A stretch of DNA of 64,000 nucleotides. It comes from Escherichia coli (GTDB lineage: Bacteria; Pseudomonadota; Gammaproteobacteria; Enterobacterales; Enterobacteriaceae). Every line of letters starts with the position of its first letter. Positions within the stretch are counted from its first letter, which is position 1. Below, one piece after another: positions 20,510-20,574 of the stretch. The stretch lies in assembly GCF_048403405.1 (NCBI RefSeq), contig NZ_CP183129.1; one strand, 5' to 3'. The translations under genes were made by a program, and so were the position numbers. Below the pieces are notes generated by a model. The model did no database searches and had not been told where the DNA came from. It saw only the letters and a program-made list of their open reading frames with translations.

Positions 20510-20528
20510 GCTGTCAGTTCGTAAGTCA

Positions 20529-20559
20529 GAAAGCCGCCGACATGTTCGGCGGTTTTTTT
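20529..20559. terminator. Rho-independent terminator between convergent nuoN and yfbM (likely bidirectional)
   Basis: Hairpin aagccgccga-catg-ttcggcggtt followed by a T7 run; preceded by an A-rich stretch on the other strand. Confidence 0.65.
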
Positions 20560-20574
20560 GGTGCCCTGACCCCA

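What the first reader, a model, noticed from the sequence alone, without database searches (positions are those of the whole stretch)
20510..20574. Compact nuoN-yfbM junction: genes recalled as yfbN/yfbO/yfbP in K-12 are absent
nuoN and the convergent yfbM are separated by 65 bp containing a single strong hairpin-terminator. From memory, K-12 carries three uncharacterised genes (yfbP, yfbO, yfbN) at this position. Their absence with a clean bidirectional terminator suggests either an insertion in K-12 or a precise deletion here, that is, a strain-variable slot next to a core operon.
Basis: inference. Interest (0 to 1): 0.3.

Follow-up and report, generated by a model that had tools for sequence, protein, structure and literature searches.

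The report
Empty accessory-gene slot after nuoN
The 65-base gap between nuoN and yfbM is the common, unoccupied form of a small strain-variable gene slot just after the nuo operon's terminator, where K-12 carries three extra genes; this is an ordinary, already described kind of E. coli genome variation.

Summary
nuoN ends at 20509, the convergent yfbM ends at 20575, and the 65 bp between them hold one strong hairpin plus a run of seven T.

K-12 has 2,610 bp here, carrying yfbP, yfbO and yfbN. Homology breaks just after the T-run and at the yfbM stop codon.

The compact form is the majority state: about 4,200-4,300 of 5,426 complete E. coli genomes. It also occurs in E. albertii, E. whittamii and another divergent Escherichia. 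The K-12 segment is in 1,015 genomes, nearly all at 99% identity or more. It has low GC (0.40 against 0.56 for nuo) and no flanking repeats. It is a mosaic, and its yfbN-yfbM "intergenic" region is a decayed SMI1/KNR4-type gene.

yfbN alleles in E. coli are polyphyletic, grouping with a cryptic clade, another cryptic clade and E. fergusonii. I therefore read the E. coli ancestor as compact, with the cassette imported several times by recombination. K-12 gained it; the window did not lose it. Polarity at the root of the genus stays open.

The hairpin is a conserved nuo terminator, strong on the + strand and weak on the other. The variable elaB-nuoK region is already published (PMC13185298). Interest is low.

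The parts
19052..20509 (+). nuoN, the last gene of the nuoA-N operon
   Evidence: 485-aa ORF. Annotated as NuoN in E. coli records that are 100% identical here.
20510..20574 (.). 65-bp convergent intergenic region: the unoccupied allele of the nuoN-proximal accessory slot
   Evidence: A single BLAST piece spans it in 4,211 of 5,426 genomes.
20530..20559 (+). Intrinsic terminator of the nuo operon. The stem is GCCGCCGA (20533-20540) paired with TCGGCGG(T) (20546-20553), the loop is CATGT, and the T-run is 20553-20559.
   Evidence: Fold of -26 kcal/mol, z = -4.27. The stem and T-run are invariant in 8 Escherichia sequences while the flanks vary. A hairpin plus T-run sits at the same position in 5 genera. 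Single copy in the window and once per genome at the median.
20560..20574 (.). The spacer where other strains carry the cassette. 20561..20573 (GTGCCCTGACCCC) is absent from K-12.
   Evidence: Homology to K-12 breaks at window 20560/20574, which is L001 3442/6001. The spacer is alignable with E. whittamii and L007.
20575..21078 (-). yfbM (DUF1877 family), convergent with nuoN
   Evidence: dN/dS is 0.03-0.11 against other Escherichia.
21181..22152 (-). yfbL (M28 metallopeptidase), the next gene of the variable yfb block
22280..22471 (+). Relic of yfbK, with approximate limits. The first ~132 bp and last 40 bp are kept, ~1.56 kb is missing, and 20 unrelated bp (22412..22431) sit at the junction. 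This is a second presence/absence site in the same region.
   Evidence: The same junction is present in 2,578 of 5,426 genomes.

Best explanation
The 65-bp interval is the unoccupied allele of an old accessory-gene slot that lies immediately 3' of the conserved intrinsic terminator of the nuoA-N operon. The hairpin plus U-run ends nuo transcription and partly insulates it from the convergent yfbM. This position tolerates extra DNA because no promoter or coding sequence is interrupted. The window carries the allele that was most likely ancestral for the species E. coli and is still its commonest form. K-12 and related strains instead carry a 2.56-kb low-GC mosaic: yfbP, yfbO, yfbN and the decayed 3' end of a SMI1/KNR4-type gene. 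The mosaic most likely entered by homologous recombination through the conserved flanks (nuoN on one side, yfbM on the other) from another Escherichia lineage that carries the cassette. No site-specific recombinase or transposase is involved. What is shown: the anatomy, the frequencies, the states in other species, the mosaic structure and the polyphyly of alleles. What is inferred: the direction of change within E. coli and recombination as the route.
For: Anatomy and the K-12 comparison.

Frequencies: the compact form is in 4,309 of 5,426 genomes with a 1-kb query and in 4,211 with a 76-bp query matched as a single piece. The K-12 segment is in 1,015 genomes, 985 of them at 99% identity or more, which fits one recent spread.

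Other species: the compact junction is also present in E. albertii (63 bp), E. whittamii (68 bp) and the divergent L007 (66 bp), with an alignable spacer in the last two.

Composition and ends: cassette GC is 0.37-0.40, against 0.556 for nuo and 0.518 for the whole window. There are no direct or inverted repeats at the ends of the K-12 segment and no mobility genes.

K-12's form is derived: its 272-bp yfbN-yfbM spacer is a stop-ridden, frameshifted relic of residues 103-191 of a 191-aa gene. That gene is intact in a cryptic-clade Escherichia and in E. fergusonii.

Polyphyly: E. coli yfbN alleles are 92% identical in protein to the MOD1-EC7003-like clade (K-12), 86% to Escherichia sp. E2748 (L004) and 92% to E. 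fergusonii (L017). They are only 66-79% identical to each other, while the adjacent yfbM alleles of the same three E. coli strains are nearly identical (dS 0.02-0.06).

Precedent for gain: typical Klebsiella has nuoN, 56 bp, then rbn. The yfbN-like gene found between nuoN and rbn in one Klebsiella contig is on only 2 contigs in the collection, and its protein cluster has a single member.

Terminator: the hairpin is conserved in position in 5 genera.
Against: The cassette sits in the same place and orientation in E. fergusonii, in at least two cryptic-clade groups and in a Superficieibacter-like genome. Its allele groups differ by dS 0.4-0.8, more than yfbM differs between E. coli and E. albertii (0.46). 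The cassette may therefore be as old as the genus, and the compact allele may be an old deletion.

The E. albertii spacer does not align convincingly with the other compact spacers, which would fit an independent deletion.

No recombination tract was detected. K-12's nuoN flank is closest to the window, not to the cryptic clade, in every 200-bp bin.

Phylogroup restriction of the K-12 type was not tested.

The terminator has no compensatory base changes (0 of 13 pairs), and the consensus terminator scan did not list it.
Confidence: 0.6

Rival explanations
1. The compact junction is an old deletion allele. On this view the Escherichia ancestor carried nuoN-yfbN-SMI1/KNR4-yfbM. A deletion between the short similar sequences ATGGTG (just after the T-run) and ATTGTG (just before the yfbM stop) removed the cassette. 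That allele then became common in E. coli and E. whittamii, with a separate deletion in E. albertii.
For: The cassette is at the same site in E. fergusonii, cryptic clades and a Superficieibacter-like genome. Allele divergence is deep (dS 0.4-0.8). The E. fergusonii and L014 cassette ends read ATGGTG...ATTGTGCT, and the E. whittamii compact junction reads ATGGTGCT. The E. albertii spacer differs from the other compact spacers.
Against: E. coli alleles are polyphyletic rather than a single clade. The repeat is only 5 of 6 nt, and the similarity of the right end to the compact spacer is marginal (248 of 5,000 shuffles do as well). T-run plus ATGG is a conserved terminator flank in 5 genera irrespective of what follows. 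Klebsiella and Citrobacter have compact junctions after nuoN. The scar would look the same after an insertion.
Confidence: 0.33
2. The window's lineage recently and precisely deleted a K-12-like yfbP-yfbO-yfbN segment.
For: Only the bare fact that K-12 has the genes and the window does not.
Against: The window has 13 nt that K-12 lacks, and they are shared with E. whittamii and L007. K-12's right edge is itself a deletion scar inside the SMI1/KNR4 gene, so the K-12 form cannot be the parent of the compact form. The compact allele is in about 78% of E. coli and in other species. tblastn finds no significant relic of the cassette proteins anywhere in the window (best E = 0.014, at an unrelated position).
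Confidence: 0.03
3. The cassette is a small mobile element that targets the nuoN terminator (site-specific insertion with a short target duplication), and the window holds its empty target site.
For: Additions in different genera all begin right after the T-run plus ATGG(T). Gene content looks layered outward from nuoN: yfbP, yfbO, yfbN, yfbM. There is a 5-of-6 direct repeat at the cassette ends.
Against: No transposase, integrase or terminal inverted repeats were found. The K-12 segment is single copy and never on plasmids. One contig carries a 39%-identical YfbN homologue away from nuoN, with no mobility genes recognised nearby. Homologous recombination through the flanks explains the fixed position.
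Confidence: 0.04

Closest known systems
Rho-independent (intrinsic) terminators at convergent gene pairs in E. coli
   Same: A GC-rich 8-11 bp stem with a 5-nt loop and a 7-U tract, starting 21 nt after the stop codon of the last operon gene. It is shared by two convergent genes and conserved in position across Enterobacteriaceae.
   Different: The reverse-strand U-tract is poor (CUUUCU), so termination of yfbM here is probably leaky. No 3'-end data were examined.
Core-flanked accessory-gene hotspots of the E. coli pan-genome, specifically 'Hotspot B (elaB to nuoK)' of PMC13185298
   Same: The same chromosomal region. [quoted passage not shown] Here the states were counted in 5,426 genomes.
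   Different: That paper describes the variants mainly as deletion or rearrangement of yfb genes. My data favour gain by import for yfbP/O/N within E. coli. They also show that the compact nuoN-yfbM form, not the K-12 form, is the majority.
tRNA- or integrase-associated genomic islands and IS/transposon insertions
   Same: A low-GC block present in some strains and absent in others, with sharp boundaries.
   Different: No integrase, transposase, att-like direct repeats or inverted repeats, and no tRNA. IS elements appear here only as secondary events in a few strains.

Membership tests
Intrinsic (Rho-independent) terminator | A stable GC-rich stem-loop immediately followed by a U-tract | tested here: met
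   The 8-bp core stem has 6 G-C pairs, and the stem extends to 11 pairs with A-U. It is followed by T7. The fold is -26 kcal/mol with z = -4.27. The consensus scan missed it. My reading is that its maximal stem uses 4 of the 7 T, leaving too few for the scan's T-tract rule.
Intrinsic (Rho-independent) terminator | Located just downstream of the last gene of a transcription unit and conserved in orthologous positions | tested here: met
   It starts 21 nt after the nuoN stop codon. The stem and T-run are invariant in 8 Escherichia sequences while the flanks vary. A hairpin plus T-run is at the same place in Escherichia, Superficieibacter-like, Klebsiella and Citrobacter sequences.
Intrinsic (Rho-independent) terminator | Transcript 3' ends map to the U-tract | not testable with these tools
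   No RNA 3'-end data were available.
Bidirectional terminator | An A-tract upstream of the stem, giving a U-tract on the opposite strand | tested here: inconclusive
   The upstream sequence is GAAAG, so the - strand reads CUUUCUGACUU. The hairpin forms, but the region as a whole scores z = -1.3.
Integrase/att-type genomic island or transposon (for the K-12 segment) | Flanking direct repeats or terminal inverted repeats, plus a recombinase gene | tested here: not met
   No repeat pair brackets L001 3443..6000. The genes are yfbP (TPR repeats), yfbO and yfbN only.
Repeated extragenic element (REP/BIME-like) | Many copies per genome | tested here: not met
   One copy in the window with up to 3 mismatches allowed. 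The median is one place per E. coli genome.
Known anti-phage defence systems (for yfbP/O/N and yfbM) | A match to a PADLOC-DB protein model | tested here: not met
   No family at E <= 0.1 for any of the four proteins.
SUKH / SMI1-KNR4 superfamily (for the 191-aa gene whose relic is in K-12; not present in the window) | A Pfam match above the gathering threshold | tested here: inconclusive
   Three related models hit the same N-terminal stretch below threshold: SUKH_5 E = 0.01, SMI1_KNR4 E = 0.022, SUKH_6 E = 0.097. RefSeq annotates the E. coli copies as 'SMI1/KNR4 family protein'.
Rfam RNA families | A match at the gathering score in 20300..20800 | tested here: not met
   The best hits are 14-19 bits against thresholds of 34-80.

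The most novel reading that the evidence does not exclude
The position just after the nuoN terminator may be a slot that spans the genus and even neighbouring genera. A yfbN plus SMI1/KNR4 (SUKH-type) gene pair would persist there as deeply diverged alleles that cross species boundaries, together with an 'empty' allele. That pattern is expected for conflict loci (toxin-immunity or defence-related) under balancing or diversifying selection. On this reading the window's 65-bp junction is one of the maintained states rather than a neutral absence.
Probability: 0.1. Interest if true: 0.4.

Novelty: already known. Interest (0 to 1): 0.17.

Why it matters
It matters little on its own. It shows that K-12's yfbP-yfbO-yfbN are minority accessory genes, present in about 19% of complete E. 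coli genomes, and not part of the species core. It also shows that the compact nuoN-yfbM junction is the norm. This is useful for annotation, since K-12's yfbN-yfbM "intergenic" region is a pseudogene relic. It is also useful for pan-genome bookkeeping of the elaB-nuoK hotspot, and for anyone using the nuo 3' end as a neutral insertion site. The polyphyletic yfbN alleles are a small, clean example of recombination between Escherichia species at a fixed locus.

Tried and rejected
- The consensus terminator scan of 20000..21300 found nothing. I put this down to the scan's T-tract rule, because the fold and the conservation are clear.
- The Rfam scan found nothing near threshold.
- The repeat search around the K-12 segment found no bracketing repeats.
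- I considered ATGGT as a target-site duplication. I rejected it because T-run plus ATGG(T) is a conserved terminator flank in five genera, and the shuffle test of right-end similarity was marginal.
- I looked for a recombination tract by sliding identity of the K-12 flanks against the window, the cryptic clade and others. There was no signal on the nuoN side. On the yfbM side K-12 is closest to another cassette-bearing E. coli.
- PADLOC and NCBIfam gave nothing for YfbP/O/N or YfbM.
- The literature search for DUF1877/YfbM returned poultry papers, where 'YFBM' means yolk-free body mass.
- The genome-contig scan with YfbM returned only 4 loci, and one of them ended at the junction. I recovered the missing contexts with exact-protein look-ups.

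Full report
**Observation**

The window has nuoN at 19052..20509 (+) and a convergent 167-aa ORF at 20575..21078 (-). That ORF is YfbM (DUF1877, E 5.8e-35). The two genes are separated by exactly 65 bp.

The interval contains AAAGCCGCCGA-CATGT-TCGGCGGTTTTTTT at 20530..20559. As + strand RNA it folds at -26 kcal/mol with z = -4.27, and none of 200 shuffles folds as well. It is unique in the window and matches no Rfam family.

The consensus terminator scan did not list it. My reading is that the scan extends the stem into the T-run, which leaves too few T for its rule.

On the - strand the same hairpin is followed only by CUUUCUGACUU. It is therefore a strong terminator for nuo and at best a weak one for yfbM.

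**Comparison with K-12**

In a K-12 derivative the order is nuoN, yfbP (-), yfbO (-), yfbN (+), yfbM (-). Other K-12 records such as W3110, RV308 and MC4100 match this segment at 100%.

- BLAST places the homology breaks at window 20560 / K-12 locus 3442, just after the T-run, and at window 20574 / locus 6001, the yfbM stop codon.
- K-12 has 2,558 bp that the window lacks.
- The window has 13 nt (GTGCCCTGACCCC) that K-12 lacks.
- The terminator is retained in K-12 on the nuoN side, with one loop change and an interrupted T-run.
- No direct or inverted repeats bracket the K-12 segment, and it encodes no recombinase.
- Its GC content is 0.40, against 0.556 for nuo.

**Frequencies in 5,426 complete E. 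coli genomes**

| State between nuoN and yfbM | Genomes |
|---|---|
| Compact, 1-kb query with one place covering at least 80% | 4,309 |
| Compact, 76-bp query matched as a single piece | 4,211 |
| K-12 segment, any match | 1,015 (985 at 99% identity or more) |
| Variant at 80-90% identity to the K-12 segment (for example L004, which has yfbO and yfbN but no yfbP) | 24 |
| Longer form: yfbO, yfbN and a frameshifted 'SMI1/KNR4 family' gene | 14 |
| IS-mediated disruptions or larger deletions | a few |

The window's region is 99.9-100% identical to strains such as TUM14771, MS 69-1 and PCN033. From memory these belong to phylogroup D; I did not test that.

**What the K-12 segment is**

The three cassette forms share a 1.6-kb core (yfbO, yfbN and downstream DNA) at only 81-90% identity.

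- yfbN and yfbO are intact in every form, with dN/dS of 0.25-0.31, so they are real genes.
- K-12's 272-bp yfbN-yfbM "intergenic" region is a stop-ridden, frameshifted relic of residues 103-191 of a 191-aa gene.
- That gene is intact in a cryptic-clade Escherichia (L014) and in E. fergusonii.
- It has sub-threshold SUKH/SMI1-KNR4 hits.

The K-12 form is therefore derived. It gained yfbP on the left and lost the 5' half of the 191-aa gene on the right.

**Other species**

| Genome | Arrangement after nuoN |
|---|---|
| E. albertii | 63 bp, then yfbM |
| E. whittamii | 68 bp, then yfbM |
| L007, a divergent genome titled E. coli | 66 bp, then yfbM |
| E. fergusonii | yfbN, 191-aa gene, yfbM |
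| MOD1-EC7003-like cryptic clade (L014) | yfbO, yfbN, 191-aa gene, yfbM |
| Genome whose NuoN equals that of Superficieibacter sp. BNK-5 | yfbN homologue (46% identical) directly after nuoN |
| One rare Klebsiella contig | yfbN homologue (46% identical) between nuoN and rbn |
| Typical Klebsiella | 56 bp, then rbn |
| A Citrobacter genome | 57 bp, then a cheV-like gene |

The window, E. whittamii and L007 spacers are alignable with each other. The E. albertii spacer is not convincingly alignable.

Other cryptic-clade strains (E2748, E4736, E1130, E2562) also encode YfbN. The YfbN family is tiny, with 19 clusters in 5.8 billion proteins.

The hairpin, the T-run and the following ATGG(T) are conserved after nuoN in all these genera, whatever comes next. 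This is why I do not read ATGGT as a target-site duplication.

**Direction of change**

Within E. coli the yfbN alleles are polyphyletic.

- K-12's allele groups with the MOD1-EC7003-like clade (92% protein identity; dS 0.13).
- L004's groups with Escherichia sp. E2748 (86%).
- L017's groups with E. fergusonii (92%; dS 0.14).
- The three E. coli alleles are only 66-79% identical to each other (dS 0.44-0.70).
- The adjacent yfbM genes of the same three strains are nearly identical (dS 0.02-0.06).

The cassette is in a minority of genomes, the K-12 type is nearly clonal, and the compact allele dominates. Together these favour a compact E. coli ancestor with at least three separate imports from other Escherichia lineages, most simply by homologous recombination through the conserved flanks. 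I put this at about 0.6.

The alternative is that the cassette is ancestral to the genus and the compact allele is an old deletion. That deletion could have occurred between ATGGTG and ATTGTG at the cassette ends. Three points support this view:

- The synteny in E. fergusonii, cryptic clades and a Superficieibacter-like genome.
- The allele depth: dS 0.4-0.8, against 0.46 for yfbM between E. coli and E. albertii.
- The unalignable E. albertii spacer.

I put this alternative at about 0.33. The junction scar would look the same under either model and does not decide between them. I found no recombination tract in the nuoN flank.

A recent precise deletion from a K-12-like parent is effectively excluded. 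The 13 window-specific nucleotides are shared with other species, and K-12's right edge is itself a deletion scar.

**What is already known**

A 2026 paper describes 'Hotspot B (elaB to nuoK)' with eight structural types in 83 strains and gain and loss of yfb genes (PMC13185298).

yfbN and yfbO are of unknown function (PMC5010248). A retron-Sen2 overexpression screen selected yfbO as a blocker because of its genetic linkage with yfbN (bioRxiv 10.1101/2020.06.22.160242). No PADLOC or NCBIfam model matches them.

**Verdict**

The feature is a conserved nuo terminator next to the empty, majority allele of a known variable slot. Interest is low.

Noticed in passing
window 22280..22471 (junction at 22412..22431): yfbK is reduced to a relic: its first ~132 bp and last 40 bp remain, ~1.56 kb is missing, and 20 unrelated bp sit at the junction. 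The same yfbK-less junction is in 2,578 of 5,426 complete E. coli genomes. The divergent L007 genome has a similar internal yfbK loss with different end points.
   Followed up: partly
window 22544..23784 (-): elaD aligns to K-12 ElaD in two reading frames, with frame changes near residues 21-23 and 393. It is therefore probably a frameshifted pseudogene. RefSeq flags it 'frameshifted' in the identical TUM14771 sequence.
   Followed up: partly
L001 (K-12) 5730..6000: The K-12 yfbN-yfbM 'intergenic' region is the decayed 3' part (residues 103-191, with stops and frameshifts) of a 191-aa SMI1/KNR4-like gene. That gene is intact in E. fergusonii and a cryptic-clade Escherichia.
   Followed up: yes
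L001, L004, L017, L014, L020 (yfbN genes): yfbN alleles in E. coli are polyphyletic and pair with alleles of different Escherichia species. dS between allele groups is 0.4-0.8, although the neighbouring yfbM genes are nearly identical. This suggests repeated exchange between species at a fixed locus.
   Followed up: partly
L025 7001..7738 compared with L027-L030: A Klebsiella contig carries a yfbN homologue (46% identical to K-12 YfbN) between nuoN and rbn. Typical Klebsiella has only 56 bp there. The homologue is on 2 contigs, and its protein cluster has a single member.
   Followed up: partly
L023 6673..7000: In the Superficieibacter-like genome the nuoN terminator is followed by REP-like GC-rich palindromes. 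A second hairpin plus TTTTTTATGG follows about 250 nt downstream, before the yfbN homologue. It looks like a duplicated terminator flank.
   Followed up: no
L033 (contig carrying P0019): The most distant YfbN homologue (39% identical) is not next to nuoN. It lies at the end of a same-strand run of small genes, most with no recorded Pfam family, plus NUDIX, alpha/beta-hydrolase and a weak DUF1801 hit. The organism is unknown.
   Followed up: no
L002, L003, L005 (E. coli UTME-12, TUM17668, Res13-Lact-PEB14-36): There are IS-mediated changes at the same junction. An IS66-family element (ISEc22) splits yfbM in one strain. In the other two, an ISEcB1 remnant with IS1A, or an IS5 element, lies just after the nuoN terminator next to deletions that reach rbn or elaD.
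   Followed up: partly
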